IMG/VR virus record: IMGVR_UViG_3300025896_000021
Source: a virus
Taxonomy: Duplodnaviria; Heunggongvirae; Uroviricota; Caudoviricetes
Direction: 5' to 3' (one strand)
Length of the DNA stretch: 64,000 nucleotides
Part shown: positions 47,877-50,133 of the stretch, piece after piece
Layout: every line of letters begins with the position of its first letter
Position numbering within the stretch: position 1 is the first letter of the stretch
Position numbers and translations under genes: made by a program
The notes under the pieces: model-generated
The model's database searches: none
Seen by the model: the letters and a program-made list of their open reading frames with translations, nothing else
What the model was told of the DNA's origin: nothing

Positions 47877-47904
47877 TATAAATATTGGGTAACATTGTAT
47901 TTAG
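47877..47904. promoter_or_regulatory. Face-to-face pair of gp55-type late promoters
   Basis: TATAAATA on + (47877-47884) and CTAAATA on - (47898-47904). Confidence 0.65.
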
Positions 47905-47939: not shown

Positions 47940-48767
47940 ATGCTTCAAGAAAATCCACTCAAACAATACTTCCGTAGACCAGCATTGTACTTGTCTCTCC
48001 CTAGCAAAGGAATAGGATACGCTCCGGGTATTATAGATTTTCCAGAGAACCATGAATTACCAATTTATCCTATGACCGCGATTGACGAGATTACTAGTCG
48101 TACACCTGATGCATTATATAACGGCTTAGCTGTTGTTGAAATTATCAAAAGCTGTGTACCTTCTATCAAAAAACCATGGGAACTACTTAACATTGACTTA
48201 GACCCTATCTTAGTTGCAATCAAAATGGCTACAAATGGACAGACTATGGAACTAGAATCCGTATGTCCAAAATGTGAAGAAACTAGCAAGTACGATATCA
48301 ATCTCAGTGGAATATTAGGTAGCTTCAAGCCAGGTGATTATTCATCAGCATTAGAAGTAAACGGATTGAAAGTCAAATTTAGACCCTCTACCTATCAAGA
48401 AGTGAATAAAGCAAGCACCAGTCAGTTTGAAATTCAACGTTTACTCAACTCGTTTGATGGAATTACTGATTCAGACGAAAGAACAAAGAAGACTGCGGAA
48501 GTGATCAAAACAATTAATGAATTGACCATTGATCTAGTTACTAGCGCAATTGAATACATCAAGACTCCAGATAGTACCGTACTAGACAAAGATTTCATTC
48601 GTGAATTCTTAGTTAGCTGTGACAAGAATACTCACAATACTATCAAAGAACGACACATTGAATTGAGAAAGAGTACTGAACTTAAGCCATTAGATGTAAA
48701 GTGTACGCATTGCAGCCATGAGTACACTCAGCAATTCAATATCAATATTTCTGATTTTTTCGCATAA
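47940..48767 (+). CDS. gp26: Baseplate hub/tail assembly chaperone (T4 gp26-like)
   Basis: 'NPLKQYFRRP..Y..LPS', 'PMTAIDEI', two CxxC motifs, ends 'SDFFA'. Confidence 0.75.
   Translation: MLQENPLKQYFRRPALYLSLPSKGIGYAPGIIDFPENHELPIYPMTAIDEITSRTPDALYNGLAVVEIIKSCVPSIKKPWELLNIDLDPILVAIKMATNGQTMELESVCPKCEETSKYDINLSGILGSFKPGDYSSALEVNGLKVKFRPSTYQEVNKASTSQFEIQRLLNSFDGITDSDERTKKTAEVIKTINELTIDLVTSAIEYIKTPDSTVLDKDFIREFLVSCDKNTHNTIKERHIELRKSTELKPLDVKCTHCSHEYTQQFNINISDFFA
48755..48761 (+). other. Candidate -1 ribosomal frameshift heptamer T_TTT_TTC
   Basis: The -1 frame is open from 48755 into ORF 48803-48991 and is closed by TGA at 48752-48754. Confidence 0.6.
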
Positions 48768-48802
48768 GGCTTCTTCTCCTTGGTTCCGAGGAGATTAAGC
48801 AG

Positions 48803-48991
48803 ATGATTGATGACATGGAACAAGAGTGCCACACCATTAAAAATGGAGCACTTAAAATGTCTTGGTATATGCGTGGGGGCGTATCCTATGAGGATGTATT
48901 GAACATGAGTATAGAAGAACGATCATCCATAACTAAGATTATTGAAGATAACTTAGAAACAACAAAGAACACTAAATTGCCTTTCTTCTAA
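48803..48991 (+). CDS. gp51-like baseplate hub assembly protein (or C-terminal part of a frameshift fusion)
   Basis: 'WYMRGGVSYEDVLNMS.EER..I..IIE.N'; GAGGAG RBS upstream. Confidence 0.7.
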   Translation: MIDDMEQECHTIKNGALKMSWYMRGGVSYEDVLNMSIEERSSITKIIEDNLETTKNTKLPFF

Positions 48992-49048
48992 CCGGTAGTA
49001 GTCATTTATCTTAGATTAGAATGTCTTAGGGTATATTGTTTCTTTAAG

Positions 49049-49090
49049 AGATGAACTACGTTCATCTAAGAACTCACTTCGTTCGTTCTT
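49049..49090 (-). other. Two adjacent DNA-type hairpins with C(GNA)G triloops
   Basis: AAGAAC-GA-AC-GAA-GT-GA-GTTCTT and AGATGAAC-GTA-GTTCATCT on the minus strand. Confidence 0.55.
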
Positions 49091-49160
49091 TATCTTTACG
49101 GTTAACTAGAATAGATATTGTTTTTTATTCTTAATCTTCTAATACATATTGCCGATTAGA

Positions 49161-49508
49161 AGCCATGGTAGGGCAAATTTTGCCCTACCAATGGTTAAAC
49201 GCATGTTTGCCATGACCGTCATCCTTTGCCATCTATTCCCCGTATAATCAGCTTCTTTGTGCTATTACACGCTACCGGTTGTCCTGTAAAGTATATGGGA
49301 CTGTAGTGAGGTCTGTTAATTCTATTTCACATTAACGCCTCGACAACGCATGTTCTATATCCGCAAGATAGAGTTGGATATAGACTCATTGAAGGTTCGC
49401 TTTGACGAGAGCCTTCTCGGTATTCCTTATCATTACTGATAAGCATACTCCAGAATCTGACGGCACAGCACAATCTGTACAATCTCAAGGAGGACTCGCA
49501 GCCGAGCC
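49161..49508 (-). ncRNA. Unidentified ~350-nt structured RNA candidate
   Basis: About nine helices, including a long-range closing helix (49208-49221 with 49458-49470) and a GUAA tetraloop. G-U pairs work only on the minus strand. Confidence 0.6.
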
Positions 49509-49568
49509 ATCTAATTTTTATATTATGCGAACTTTGTGTCTGCTTTTATTTGTTTGGTTTGGTTTGGT

Positions 49569-50099
49569 TTATTTTGACGTGGTGTCTAATGTTGTACTTG
49601 AGTAGGCTTTCACGAACTCAGTATTATTTTTGAAGAAGCTAGTATGCTCCATGATGATCCAATCACCATGCTTCTTACTACTATAGAATACGCAGTTGTC
49701 TGCTTTCCATGTTAGTTTGCCTTGGACAGCGACATATTGACCCTTGCGATTGAACTTCATAAACAAAAGATTCAAATCACCGTCGTCTTCTACATCAAGT
49801 AGCTGTTCTAGCCACGAATCAAGTTGTTTGCACTCACCCGAAAGAGTTAAGTGCCACGGAAAGTCAGCATAGAATTTGCATTCTATATTCATTTTACTGA
49901 AACTTTGTCCTGGAACAATGTCTCCCTTGAATGAACGTATCTGACCTTCGTGCAAGAACTGAGTTCTTGATTGATTCTTGCCACCCACATAAGCACCAGA
50001 ACCAGGAGCACGGATGAATGATTCTCCGTACAATTCAGAAAGAAATTTTGCAACTTCTCTCTCGTATCCTGATCCTTTGTTCTTCTGCGGTGATGACAT
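49569..50099 (-). CDS. Holliday junction resolvase-like PD-(D/E)XK nuclease
   Basis: 'KGSGYEREVA', 'GDI', 'IECK' pattern. Start re-set to MSSPQKNKG. Confidence 0.75.
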   Translation of the reverse strand: MSSPQKNKGSGYEREVAKFLSELYGESFIRAPGSGAYVGGKNQSRTQFLHEGQIRSFKGDIVPGQSFSKMNIECKFYADFPWHLTLSGECKQLDSWLEQLLDVEDDGDLNLLFMKFNRKGQYVAVQGKLTWKADNCVFYSSKKHGDWIIMEHTSFFKNNTEFVKAYSSTTLDTTSK

Positions 50100-50133
50100 A
50101 CTATTACTTATCACTAGTGAATCGTGTCCGTAA

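What the first reader, a model, noticed from the sequence alone, without database searches (positions are those of the whole stretch)
49161..49508. Unannotated ~350-nt highly structured RNA between the tail-chaperone and resolvase genes
Seen (plus coordinates, pairing on the minus strand): helices 49493-98/49503-08; 49426-32/49437-43 with a GUAA tetraloop; 49391-95/49412-16; 49354-62/49376-84; 49308-20/49331-41; 49281-84/49298-301; 49241-48/49264-71. A 13-bp long-range helix 49208-21/49458-70 encloses six of them, and a 10-bp terminal hairpin lies at 49166-75/49181-90. Several G-U pairs would be A-C mismatches on the plus strand, which fixes the orientation. A TATAAAAA late-promoter-like element (49515-49522) lies just upstream. 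It sits in the only large non-coding gap of a densely coding window. I cannot match it to tRNA, tmRNA, RNase P or group I consensus motifs.
Basis: partly seen in the sequence, partly recalled or inferred. Interest (0 to 1): 0.8.

Follow-up and report, generated by a model that had tools for sequence, protein, structure and literature searches.

The report
Large doubly knotted jumbo-phage RNA
The gene-free gap behind a small nuclease gene of this uncultured freshwater giant phage encodes a real RNA of about 375 bases with a doubly knotted fold; hundreds of related phages keep it, no RNA catalogue lists it, and its job is unknown.

Summary
The finding holds. Window 49147-49520 (minus strand) is a single-copy gene for a ~375-nt non-coding RNA. 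It sits at the same place, nuclease gene -> RNA <- small ORF <- gp51, in all 200 related viral contigs fetched and in at least 119 metagenome contigs. None was found in 185,579 bacterial and archaeal genomes.

On 109 non-redundant relatives, 107 modelled pairs are 90.5% canonical (31-45% when partners are slid). 77 pairs show compensatory change. G-U outnumbers A-C 776 to 163, which fixes the strand.

Its 13-bp long-range helix and one 4-bp helix are not. It missed a four-way junction, two covarying pseudoknots and a closing 3' domain.

Rfam 15 gives nothing at E<=10 for group I, RNase P, tmRNA, GOLLD, ROOL or Polynucleobacter-1.

The oddest feature is two short "twin boxes" flanking an invariant hairpin. 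They mutate together yet stay identical, and I found no complementary partner.

Function is unknown. My best reading is a trans-acting RNP scaffold or ribozyme that shows one recognition site twice.

This scan has already reported the same family on other, related phage genomes. I re-tested their main claims independently.

The parts
49147..49520 (-). Conserved block of the RNA gene (~375 nt)
   Evidence: blastn and nhmmer conservation in every relative, one copy each. Conservation drops sharply outside these ends.
49493..49508 (-). H1 hairpin (GGCUCG/CGAGUC, 4-nt loop)
   Evidence: 6 pairs, all with compensatory changes (helix 2).
49448..49492 (-). H2 (CUCC 49489-49492 with GGAG 49448-49451) enclosing hairpin H3 (49459-49484)
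   Evidence: H2 is 100% paired, with CUCU/AGAG and CUUC/GAAG variants. All 9 pairs of H3 covary (helices 3 and 4). H3 is a single hairpin in 109 of 109 sequences.
49426..49443 (-). H4 variable hairpin with GUAA tetraloop
   Evidence: Single hairpin in 108 of 109 sequences, 17-69 nt long. GNRA loop in 72 of 109.
49273..49422 (-). Four-way junction core. H5 is 49418-22/49273-77, H6 is 49391-49416, H7 is 49350-49389, and H8 is 49342-47/49278-83, stacked on H5. H9 hairpin (49308-49341) lies inside H8.
   Evidence: helices 7-14: H5 99%, H6 100%, H7 93.5%, H8 96.6% paired, with many compensatory pairs. H9 is a single hairpin in 109 of 109 sequences.
49297..49300 (-). Pseudoknot 1, 5' strand (UCCC); pairs with GGGA at 49237-49240
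   Evidence: 95.4% paired. Pair types UA 62, CG 19, AU 14, GC 5 at the first pair (helix 15; first seen).
49366..49371 (-). Pseudoknot 2, 5' strand (CUAUCU in the H7 loop); pairs with AGAUGG at 49229-49234
   Evidence: 95.6% paired, and 5 of 6 pairs have compensatory changes (helix 11).
49229..49271 (-). H11 hairpin (49241-49271), followed by the 3' strands of pseudoknot 1 (49237-49240) and pseudoknot 2 (49229-49234)
   Evidence: H11 is 92.8% paired and 10 of 11 pairs covary (helix 16). Its loop is A-rich.
49198..49220 (-). H12 weak hairpin showing twin box A (UCAUGGCAAA, 49206-49215) in its loop
   Evidence: Folds of 77 distinct versions. The stem covaries (GGU/ACC, GGG/CCC, CAGG/CCUG).
49163..49194 (-). 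H13 hairpin with an invariant stem (GGUAGGGC/GCCCUACC here; GGUAGUGC/GCACUACC in most), flanked by CCAU/AUGG
   Evidence: 97% paired and almost no variation in 109 sequences, although other stems covary freely (helices 17-19).
49148..49155 (-). Twin box B (UCGGCAAU) at the 3' end. It can pair with the 5' end (49509-49515) as a weak closing helix, H0.
   Evidence: Identity with box A through many variants. H0 is 84.7% paired with hardly any compensation (helix 1).
49515..49522 (-). TATAAAAA, a possible promoter element just upstream
   Evidence: Present and conserved in the main clade only. Function not shown.

Best explanation
Shown: window 49147-49520 (minus strand) is a single-copy gene for a ~375-nt non-coding RNA. 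It is fixed in one lineage of uncultured, mostly freshwater, T4-like jumbo phages. It always lies directly behind a small PD-(D/E)XK nuclease gene and faces the gp51 operon. Its core is a four-way junction (H5/H6/H7/H8) locked by two pseudoknots. Variable peripheral hairpins end in GNRA or A-rich loops. A 3' domain holds an invariant hairpin (H13) flanked by two near-identical short boxes.

Inferred: it acts in trans as a compactly folded RNA machine, either the scaffold of a ribonucleoprotein or a ribozyme. It is not a mere mRNA tail. The twin boxes are two copies of one recognition site, read by base pairing with a single partner that is not part of the RNA.

My odds: real structured RNA gene 0.97; independent trans-acting RNA 0.7; twin boxes read by one common nucleic-acid partner 0.35.
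For: Conservation and copy number:
- The region is 69-93% identical behind the nuclease gene in all 80 first loci.
- There is one copy in each of 200 loci and in each of 5 near-complete 303-525 kb genomes.
- Synteny is invariant.

Structure:
- 107 pairs are 90.5% canonical against 31-45% when slid. 77 pairs and 1456 cells show compensatory change, and 0 of 500 shuffles reach this.
- Both pseudoknots covary.
- Each of H3, H4, H9 and H11 is one hairpin in 108-109 of 109 sequences despite 17-69-nt length variation. 72 GNRA loops cap H4.

Strand and coding:
- G-U 776 against A-C 163.
- Stops in all six frames, and indels mostly not multiples of three.

Novelty and distribution:
- No Rfam family matches.
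- Found in viruses only: 0 hits in the bacterial/archaeal species genomes, at least 119 in metagenomes.

Twin boxes:
- Matched variants are GGU, GAU, AGC, GGCAUG and GGCAG.
- On a tree, 13 of 17 and 19 changes at the flanking G/U site fall on the same branch with the same new base.
- Mutual information between the two sites is 0.77, higher than with sites lying between them.
- Where the boxes differ it is often C against U, as expected opposite a G in a pairing partner.
Against:
- No convincing promoter or terminator was found.
- No partner for the boxes was found inside the RNA, within 150 nt, or enriched in the ~8-kb loci.
- About 20 family members have UGCAA against GGCAA, so box identity is not absolute.
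- The closing helix H0 is weak.
- Nothing shown here separates a ribozyme from a protein-binding scaffold.
Confidence: 0.55

Rival explanations
1. It is a cis-acting 3' untranslated element of the nuclease mRNA. It would act as a stabiliser, a processing site, or a roadblock where two transcription units converge.
For: It starts ~50 nt after the nuclease stop codon on the same strand in every locus. No independent promoter is proven. It lies at a convergent junction.
Against: A four-way junction, two covarying pseudoknots, invariant junction bases and twin boxes are far more than a 3' stabiliser or terminator needs. No U-tract follows any of its hairpins. Conservation is as high as in the flanking proteins.
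Confidence: 0.15
2. It is the primer RNA of a replication origin. The transcript would re-pair with its DNA in the AT-rich stretch just downstream and start DNA synthesis, as ColE1 RNA II or the T4 oriF/oriG R-loops do. Earlier notes of this scan proposed this.
For: An AT-rich, length-variable spacer (about 49095-49146) follows the RNA. Two conserved hairpins with C(GAA)G-type loops lie at 49049-49089. The neighbours are recombination and repair genes.
Against: Cumulative GC skew has no turning point here; its minimum lies near 55-59 kb, where the gene strand changes (a weak test). In hairpin A, the departures from Watson-Crick pairing are A-C, never G-U, on the RNA's strand. A U-rich tail follows on the plus strand. 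Both fit a terminator of the gp51 operon. Primer RNAs do not need such a knotted, invariant core. The RNA is not near the genome ends in a record with terminal repeats.
Confidence: 0.1
3. It is a group-I-like ribozyme, or the remnant of a group I intron whose homing endonuclease became the neighbouring nuclease. It would now process its own transcript.
For: The order H5(5') - hairpins - pseudoknot 1(5') - H8/H5(3') - hairpin H11 - pseudoknot 1(3') has the same topology as P3 - P4/P6 - P7 - P3' - P8 - P7' (the group I layout is from established knowledge). It has GNRA peripheral loops. It is a phage RNA next to a small nuclease gene.
Against: Rfam's group I model does not match at E<=10, even when only the RNA is searched. 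There are no exons: a convergent gene follows, and no ORF is interrupted. The RNA is at a fixed locus in all relatives rather than scattered like mobile introns. The extra helices H8 and H9 interrupt the P3-like stack.
Confidence: 0.07
4. It is a tRNA-binding RNA. Each twin box is a codon-like NNY-A motif that pairs with the anticodon loop of a G34 tRNA. For example, GGCAA pairs with UUGCC of tRNA-Gly(GCC). The RNA would hold or shield two tRNAs.
For: Every box variant has a pyrimidine at the third place followed by an invariant A: GGC, GGU, GAU, AGC, AGU, AAC, AAU, UGC. Boxes that differ often differ only C against U: AGC/AGU and AAC/AAU. Box A sits in a hairpin loop of 5-12 nt. The anticodon-loop sequences are from established knowledge, not tested here.
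Against: About 20 members pair UGC with GGC, which would mean two different tRNAs. The fifth box position also changes to U (GGCAUG), which does not fit pairing with tRNA position 32. No tRNA gene is in the window. No binding data exist.
Confidence: 0.07
5. It is not an RNA at all, but a small protein-coding region or a DNA-level signal such as a packaging site or cruciform.
For: ORFs of 53 and 67 codons overlap it. The plus strand also folds well.
Against: There are stops in all six frames and no conserved ORF. Gap runs by length modulo three number 2528, 845 and 286. A DNA duplex signal would not favour G-U over A-C 776 to 163. It is far from the genome ends.
Confidence: 0.01

Closest known systems
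GOLLD (RF01998) and ROOL (RF03087), large ornate RNAs often carried by phages and prophages
   Same: Large, many-helix, pseudoknotted non-coding RNAs. They are frequently phage-borne, have no ORF, have variable peripheral hairpins around a conserved core, and have no known function.
   Different: No sequence or covariance-model similarity. This RNA is about half their size or less. Its carriers are freshwater T4-like jumbo phages rather than phages of Firmicutes. The twin boxes flanking an invariant hairpin have no counterpart that I know of.
Polynucleobacter-1 RNA motif (RF01718; Weinberg et al. 2010, PMC2864571)
   Same: It comes from fresh-water/estuary metagenomes and has unknown function. 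The paper's supplement says it lies downstream of a small gene family with a possible cyanophage P-SSM2 homologue, a context much like this one. It shares the 8-nt string GGAUGACG. Earlier notes of this scan say it forms the first third of related RNAs in other clades.
   Different: Rfam's model does not match this window at E<=10. It also does not match five complete genomes that hold this RNA at E<=1. The family HMM finds nothing in one RF01718 seed sequence. RF01718 has 141 positions against ~375, and neither the pseudoknots nor the twin boxes are described for it.
Catalytic core of group I introns
   Same: The pseudoknot topology is like P3-P7 bracketing P8. It has GNRA-capped peripheral helices. 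It is a phage RNA next to a small nuclease gene.
   Different: No exons, no match to RF00028, a fixed chromosomal position, and extra helices in the P3-like stack. No guanosine site can be recognised.
Multi-site decoy or sensor RNAs (CsrB/RsmZ GGA motifs; T-box specifier plus acceptor contacts)
   Same: A structured RNA shows the same short single-stranded motif more than once, partly in hairpin loops, to one partner.
   Different: In those RNAs the motif is invariant or set by a known partner. Here the motif changes between lineages and both copies follow, and no partner is known.

Membership tests
Any Rfam 15 family | Covariance-model score at or above the gathering score, or at least E<=10 | tested here: not met
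   0 hits at gathering score over the whole window. Only noise at E<=10 on 48700-49700, 49380-49545 and 49140-49430. Nothing relevant in 8 divergent loci at E<=1.
Group I intron | Match to the family model (RF00028) | tested here: not met
   No hit at E<=10, even with only the RNA as input.
Group I intron | Interrupts a gene, with flanking exons that join into an ORF or a structural RNA | tested here: not met
   The upstream ORF ends with its own stop at 49569. A convergent gene and no minus-strand ORF lie downstream.
Group I intron | P3-P7 pseudoknot with the P4-P6 domain and P8 | tested here: inconclusive
   The topology is analogous (H5, pseudoknot 1, H11), but H8 and H9 are inserted and the helices cannot be equated by sequence.
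Bacterial RNase P RNA | Model match and the conserved regions CR-I (GAGGAAAGUCC) and CR-V (ACAGAAnnCGGCUUA) forming P4 | tested here: not met
   No model hit. There is only a loose resemblance by eye: GGAAUACCGAG and ACAGGACAACCGGUA. The pairing topology differs.
tmRNA / tRNA | tRNA-like domain with acceptor stem, T arm and CCA end; tag reading frame | tested here: not met
   ARAGORN finds no tRNA or tmRNA in the window. No Rfam hit. The linker between box A and H13 varies by 1-8 nt, so no reading frame is kept.
GOLLD / ROOL | Match to RF01998 or RF03087 | tested here: not met
   No hit.
Polynucleobacter-1 motif (RF01718) | Match to the 141-position model (gathering score 37 bits) | tested here: not met
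   No hit in the window at E<=10. No hit in five genomes holding the RNA at E<=1. nhmmer of the family profile against one seed row finds nothing.
Polynucleobacter-1 motif (RF01718) | Lies downstream of GOS11034-family genes (possible P-SSM2 PSSM2_218 homologues) | not tested
   Stated in the paper's supplement. I did not compare that family with the PDDEXK_15 nuclease here.
Template RNA of a reverse transcriptase (retron, DRT2-type, with repeats for template jumping) | A reverse transcriptase gene in the same element | tested here: not met
   No RVT_1 match in five records holding the RNA, four of them at least 90% complete.
Intrinsic terminator / simple 3' UTR hairpin | GC-rich hairpin followed by a U-tract on the transcribed strand | tested here: not met
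   No minus-strand terminator-like site in 48700-49800. H13 is followed by AUGGCUUCUAAUCGG.

The most novel reading that the evidence does not exclude
This is a new class of catalytic or ribonucleoprotein RNA of giant phages. Its two identical boxes are read by base pairing with one outside nucleic acid. The most concrete version is that they are codon-like NNY-A motifs which capture the anticodon loops of two G34 tRNAs (GGCAA against UUGCC of tRNA-Gly). The phage would then hold, shield or deliver specific tRNAs during infection.
Probability: 0.08. Interest if true: 0.9.

Novelty: categorically new. Interest (0 to 1): 0.75.

Why it matters
Large RNAs with conserved tertiary folds are rare, and nearly every one understood so far does something fundamental: ribozymes, riboswitches, or the RNA cores of ribonucleoproteins. 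This RNA is kept as a single-copy core gene by hundreds of uncultured jumbo phages. It has two pseudoknots and invariant junction bases, and it fits no catalogued family. Its twin boxes change in step while staying identical. I know of no structured RNA described with that kind of constraint, and it points to a specific, testable recognition event. At ~120 kDa the RNA is well suited to RNA-only cryo-EM, and the alignment of more than 200 distinct sequences already gives a detailed pairing map.

Tried and rejected
- Rfam at gathering score and at E<=10, on the whole window, on three sub-ranges and on 8 divergent loci: nothing.
- ARAGORN: nothing.
- blastn against 50,697 phage records: no match.
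- The closest cultured phages by gp46 are PA5oct-like (42% aa). The PA5oct locus has no homologue by nhmmer or pattern. Its four published ncRNAs lie elsewhere (PMC7318152).
- RF01718 link: model and profile tests were negative. A 28-nt probe for the Polynucleobacter copy found nothing in the genome collection.
- Reverse-transcriptase template idea: no RT gene found.
- Internal or nearby partner for the twin boxes: only the invariant H8 strand and the weak 5' strand are complementary, and neither follows the box variants. There is no enrichment of the anti-box in ~1 Mb of loci: 59 found, 61 expected.
- Linkage alone as the cause of box identity: rejected, because sites between the two G/U positions are less associated with them than they are with each other.
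- A tmRNA-like tag frame from box A to box B is open in the window, but the linker length is not kept.
- K-turn, 11-nt tetraloop receptor and anti-Shine-Dalgarno mimicry (CCUCCUU): considered by eye only. The CUCC pairs internally with GGAG and covaries to CUCU/AGAG.
- Origin signal in GC skew: none at the locus.
- Sigma-70-type or T4-late-type promoter: no convincing site.
- Expression evidence could not be obtained with these tools.

Full report
**Where it lies.**
The finding sits in a 577-nt gap between two converging transcription units.
- On the plus strand, a gp51-like baseplate-hub gene (47940-48767; PHROG 150, Pfam T4_baseplate) and a 62-codon ORF (48803-48991; phrog_18291) end at 48991.
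- On the minus strand, a 181-codon nuclease gene ends at 49569. SbcC/gp46-like and SbcD/gp47-like genes lie upstream of it.
PHROGs labels it RusA-like.
- By gp46, the nearest cultured phages are Pseudomonas PA5oct-like, Sinorhizobium Phosso, Agrobacterium Atu_ph07 and Xanthomonas XaC1 jumbo phages, at 36-42% identity.
- The window therefore comes from an uncultured T4-like jumbo phage.

- The minus strand folds to -113.6 kcal/mol (z = -3.68). The plus strand does as well (z = -4.0), so energy shows structure but not strand.
- No tRNA or tmRNA is found.
- Rfam 15 gives nothing at gathering score over the whole window. At E<=10 it gives only noise, on the 1-kb region, on the 5' third and on the core plus 3' domain.

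**Relatives.**
- The nuclease protein retrieved 172 viral contigs, and I kept 80 loci. In every one, the DNA just downstream of the nuclease gene aligns to the window at 69-93% identity over about 49526-49036.
- A pattern built from invariant core bases found at least 120 further viral contigs. It also found at least 119 metagenome contigs, mostly lake samples. It found none in one genome each of 185,579 bacterial and archaeal species.
- A profile search finds exactly one copy in each of 200 loci. It finds one copy in each of five records of 303-525 kb, four of them judged complete.
- The order nuclease -> RNA <- small ORF <- gp51 holds in all 169 loci long enough to show both sides. The other loci are cut by contig ends, apart from two where the nuclease match lay just outside the set distance window.

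**Structure from covariation.**
- On 60 sequences, RNAalifold predicted 67 pairs, 39 of them with compensatory change.
- An all-against-all column scan added two pseudoknots.
- I then aligned 109 representatives, none more than 97% identical to another (A3), and counted a model of 107 pairs.
- 90.5% of cells are canonical, against 30.6-44.7% when every 3' partner is slid by 1-3 columns.
- 77 pairs and 1456 cells show change on both sides. None of 500 shuffles reaches any of the five measures.

**The model, in window coordinates on the minus strand.**
- H1: 49508-03/49498-93.
- H2: CUCC 49492-89 with GGAG 49451-48, enclosing hairpin H3 (49484-49459). H2 is nearly invariant, but three sequences carry CUCU/AGAG or CUUC/GAAG.
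- H4: 49443-26.
- H5: 49422-18/49277-73.
- H6: 49416-49391.
- H7: 49389-49350.
- H8: 49347-42/49283-78, contiguous with H5 on the 3' side. H5, H6, H7 and H8 therefore form a four-way junction.
- H9: 49341-49308, inside H8.
- H11: 49271-49241.
- Pseudoknot 1: UCCC 49300-297 with GGGA 49240-237. Relatives have GCUC/GAGC, CCUC/GAGG, UCUC/GAGA and CUCC/GGAG.
- Pseudoknot 2: CUAUCU 49371-66, in the H7 loop, with AGAUGG 49234-29. Five of its six pairs covary.

**Peripheral hairpins.**
H3, H4, H9 and H11 each fold as one hairpin in 108-109 of 109 sequences, although H4 ranges from 17 to 69 nt. H4 ends in a GNRA tetraloop in 72 sequences, and the H11 loops are A-rich. These are the usual marks of an RNA with a packed tertiary fold.

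**Strand and coding.**
- In the modelled pairs there are 776 G-U cells and 163 A-C cells, so the RNA is read from the window's minus strand.
- All six frames of the window copy carry 4-11 stops.
- The longest stop-free run varies from 40 to 127 codons between relatives.
- Gap runs of length 1, 2 and 0 modulo 3 number 2528, 845 and 286.
- It is not a protein gene.

- Seven of nine helices are confirmed.
- The 13-bp long-range helix (49470-58 with 49208-21) is 80-88% paired. However, only 3 single cells in 13 pairs show change on both sides. One pair is unpaired in 74 of 108 rows. It also breaks in the relatives whose H3 has another sequence, while the competing local hairpin H3 keeps pairing through compensatory changes.
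- I cannot exclude it as an alternative conformer in the window's subgroup, but evolution does not support it.
- The 4-bp helix 49301-298/49284-281 conflicts with H8 and pseudoknot 1, both of which covary.

**The 3' domain and the twin boxes.**
- After pseudoknot 2 come the nearly invariant GGAUGACGG and a weak hairpin H12 (49220-49198). The H12 stem covaries (GGU/ACC, GGG/CCC, CAGG/CCUG), and its loop shows the sequence GGCAA.
- Next is H13 (49194-49163). Its stem sequence hardly changes in 109 sequences, even though other stems covary freely.
- Then come CUUCUAAUC and GGCAAU, after which conservation stops.
- Earlier notes of this scan on related genomes spoke of two boxes that stay identical. 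I tested this independently.
- A scan for columns that vary yet stay identical picks out these two sites.
- Across 220 distinct family members, box A (49206-49215) and box B (49148-49155) share the core x-G-Y-A-A. They change together: GGC/GGC, GGU/GGU, GAU/GAU, AGC/AGC, AGC/AGU, AAC/AAU, GGCAUG twice, GGCAG twice.
- There are exceptions. The largest is a class of about 20 with UGCAA against GGCAA.
- I built a tree from the rest of the molecule. The G/U site just upstream of each box changes 17 and 19 times. 13 of these changes fall on the same branch with the same new base, where about 1.5 would be expected by chance. At the variable fifth box position, 4 of the 5 changes in box B coincide with changes in box A.
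- The two G/U sites have mutual information 0.77. Their mutual information with the H13 loop columns between them is only 0.2-0.3. Simple linkage of a swapped segment therefore does not explain it.
- I found no covarying complementary strand. Only the invariant H8 5' strand and the weak 5' closing strand (H0, 84.7% paired, almost no compensation) are complementary. Nothing was found within 150 nt. The anti-box is not enriched in about 1 Mb of loci: 59 hits against 61 expected.
- That the boxes often differ only by C against U suggests a pairing partner with G opposite that position.

**Tests of known kinds.**
- Group I intron: the topology around pseudoknot 1 resembles P3-P7-P8. But there is no model match, there are no exons, and the RNA sits at a fixed locus.
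- RNase P and tmRNA: no match.
- Reverse-transcriptase template with repeats for template jumping: no RVT_1 gene in five genomes.
- Polynucleobacter-1 (RF01718): earlier notes call it the first third of related RNAs. The paper's supplement places it downstream of a small phage-like gene family, a context like this one.
  - The model does not match this window at E<=10, nor five genomes with the RNA at E<=1.
  - The family profile finds nothing in a seed sequence.
  - Only GGAUGACG is shared.
  - For this clade, membership is therefore not shown. A distant relation through other clades remains possible and was not tested here.
- PA5oct: no homologue at the matching locus, and its published ncRNAs lie elsewhere.

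**How it most likely works.**
- Shown: a conserved, single-copy, non-coding, strand-specific RNA fold with a knotted core and a distinct 3' domain.
- Inferred: it is made as, or processed to, a discrete RNA. It acts in trans as a ribonucleoprotein scaffold or a ribozyme. The invariant H13 and the two boxes form the business end, with the boxes read twice by one base-pairing partner.
- The cis 3' UTR reading, the primer-of-replication reading and the group-I-remnant reading are less likely, for the reasons given under the rivals. None of them is excluded.
- The downstream hairpins at 49049-49089 covary. Hairpin A departs from Watson-Crick pairing by A-C rather than G-U on the RNA's strand, and a U-rich tail follows on the plus strand. 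They look like the terminator of the gp51 operon rather than part of this RNA.
- No origin-like turn in GC skew lies here.

**Limits.**
- I had no transcript data, so expression, ends, promoter and terminator are not established.
- The alignments of the variable hairpins and of the most divergent clade are imperfect. This lowers the pairing percentages of H1, H4 and H9.
- The tree-based counts rest on parsimony over a FastTree tree of a recombining population.

**Novelty.**
Within what these tools can reach (Rfam 15, the held literature, phage and prokaryote genome collections), this is an undescribed RNA family with no recognisable relative of known function. The same family has already been flagged by this scan on other, related phage genomes. 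That neither raises nor lowers the score given here.

Noticed in passing
window 49049-49089 (hairpin A 49069-49089, hairpin B 49049-49067): Two abutting conserved hairpins with C(GAA)G or C(GUA)G loops show compensatory stem changes in relatives. In hairpin A, non-Watson-Crick cells are A-C (19), never G-U, on the minus strand. On the plus strand a U-rich tail (TTTATCTTTA) follows. They look like the terminator of the gp51/small-ORF operon, not part of the RNA or a DNA origin.
   Followed up: partly
window 49002-49010 (minus strand GATAAATGA): A motif close to the T4 late-promoter box is conserved in nearly all relatives, about 10 nt beyond the stop of the 62-codon plus-strand ORF. It points into antisense of that ORF. 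Its purpose is unknown.
   Followed up: no
window 49527-49543 and 49575-49587: The spacer between the nuclease stop and the RNA holds GCAGACACAAAGTTCGC. This is a near-repeat of the nuclease gene's last codons (AGACACCACGTCA). Several otherwise diverged relatives share the same 30-nt block.
   Followed up: no
loci L015, L017, L027, L028, L038, L039, L089, L107, L112, L122, L124, L180: 0-25 nt upstream of the RNA: A motif ACAGAACCCT precedes the RNA in several clades, in place of the window's TATAAAAA context. It may be a lineage-specific promoter or processing signal.
   Followed up: no
window 49569-50114 (minus): The gene called a resolvase matches Pfam PDDEXK_15 (putative phage PD-(D/E)XK endonuclease) over residues 10-131, leaving about 50 C-terminal residues unassigned. 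PHROGs calls the same family RusA-like.
   Followed up: partly
window 47877-47884 (plus): The only exact TATAAATA in 64 kb lies 55 nt upstream of the gp51-like gene. About 6 would be expected by chance, so the motif seems to be avoided elsewhere.
   Followed up: no
locus L201 (PA5oct NC_071039.1, record 75700-77850): In PA5oct the stretch between the PD-(D/E)XK/RusA-like gene and the baseplate-hub gene is about 2.2 kb. It holds only tiny hypothetical ORFs and a 660-nt gap. It shows no sequence similarity to this RNA and was not examined for a structure of its own.
   Followed up: no
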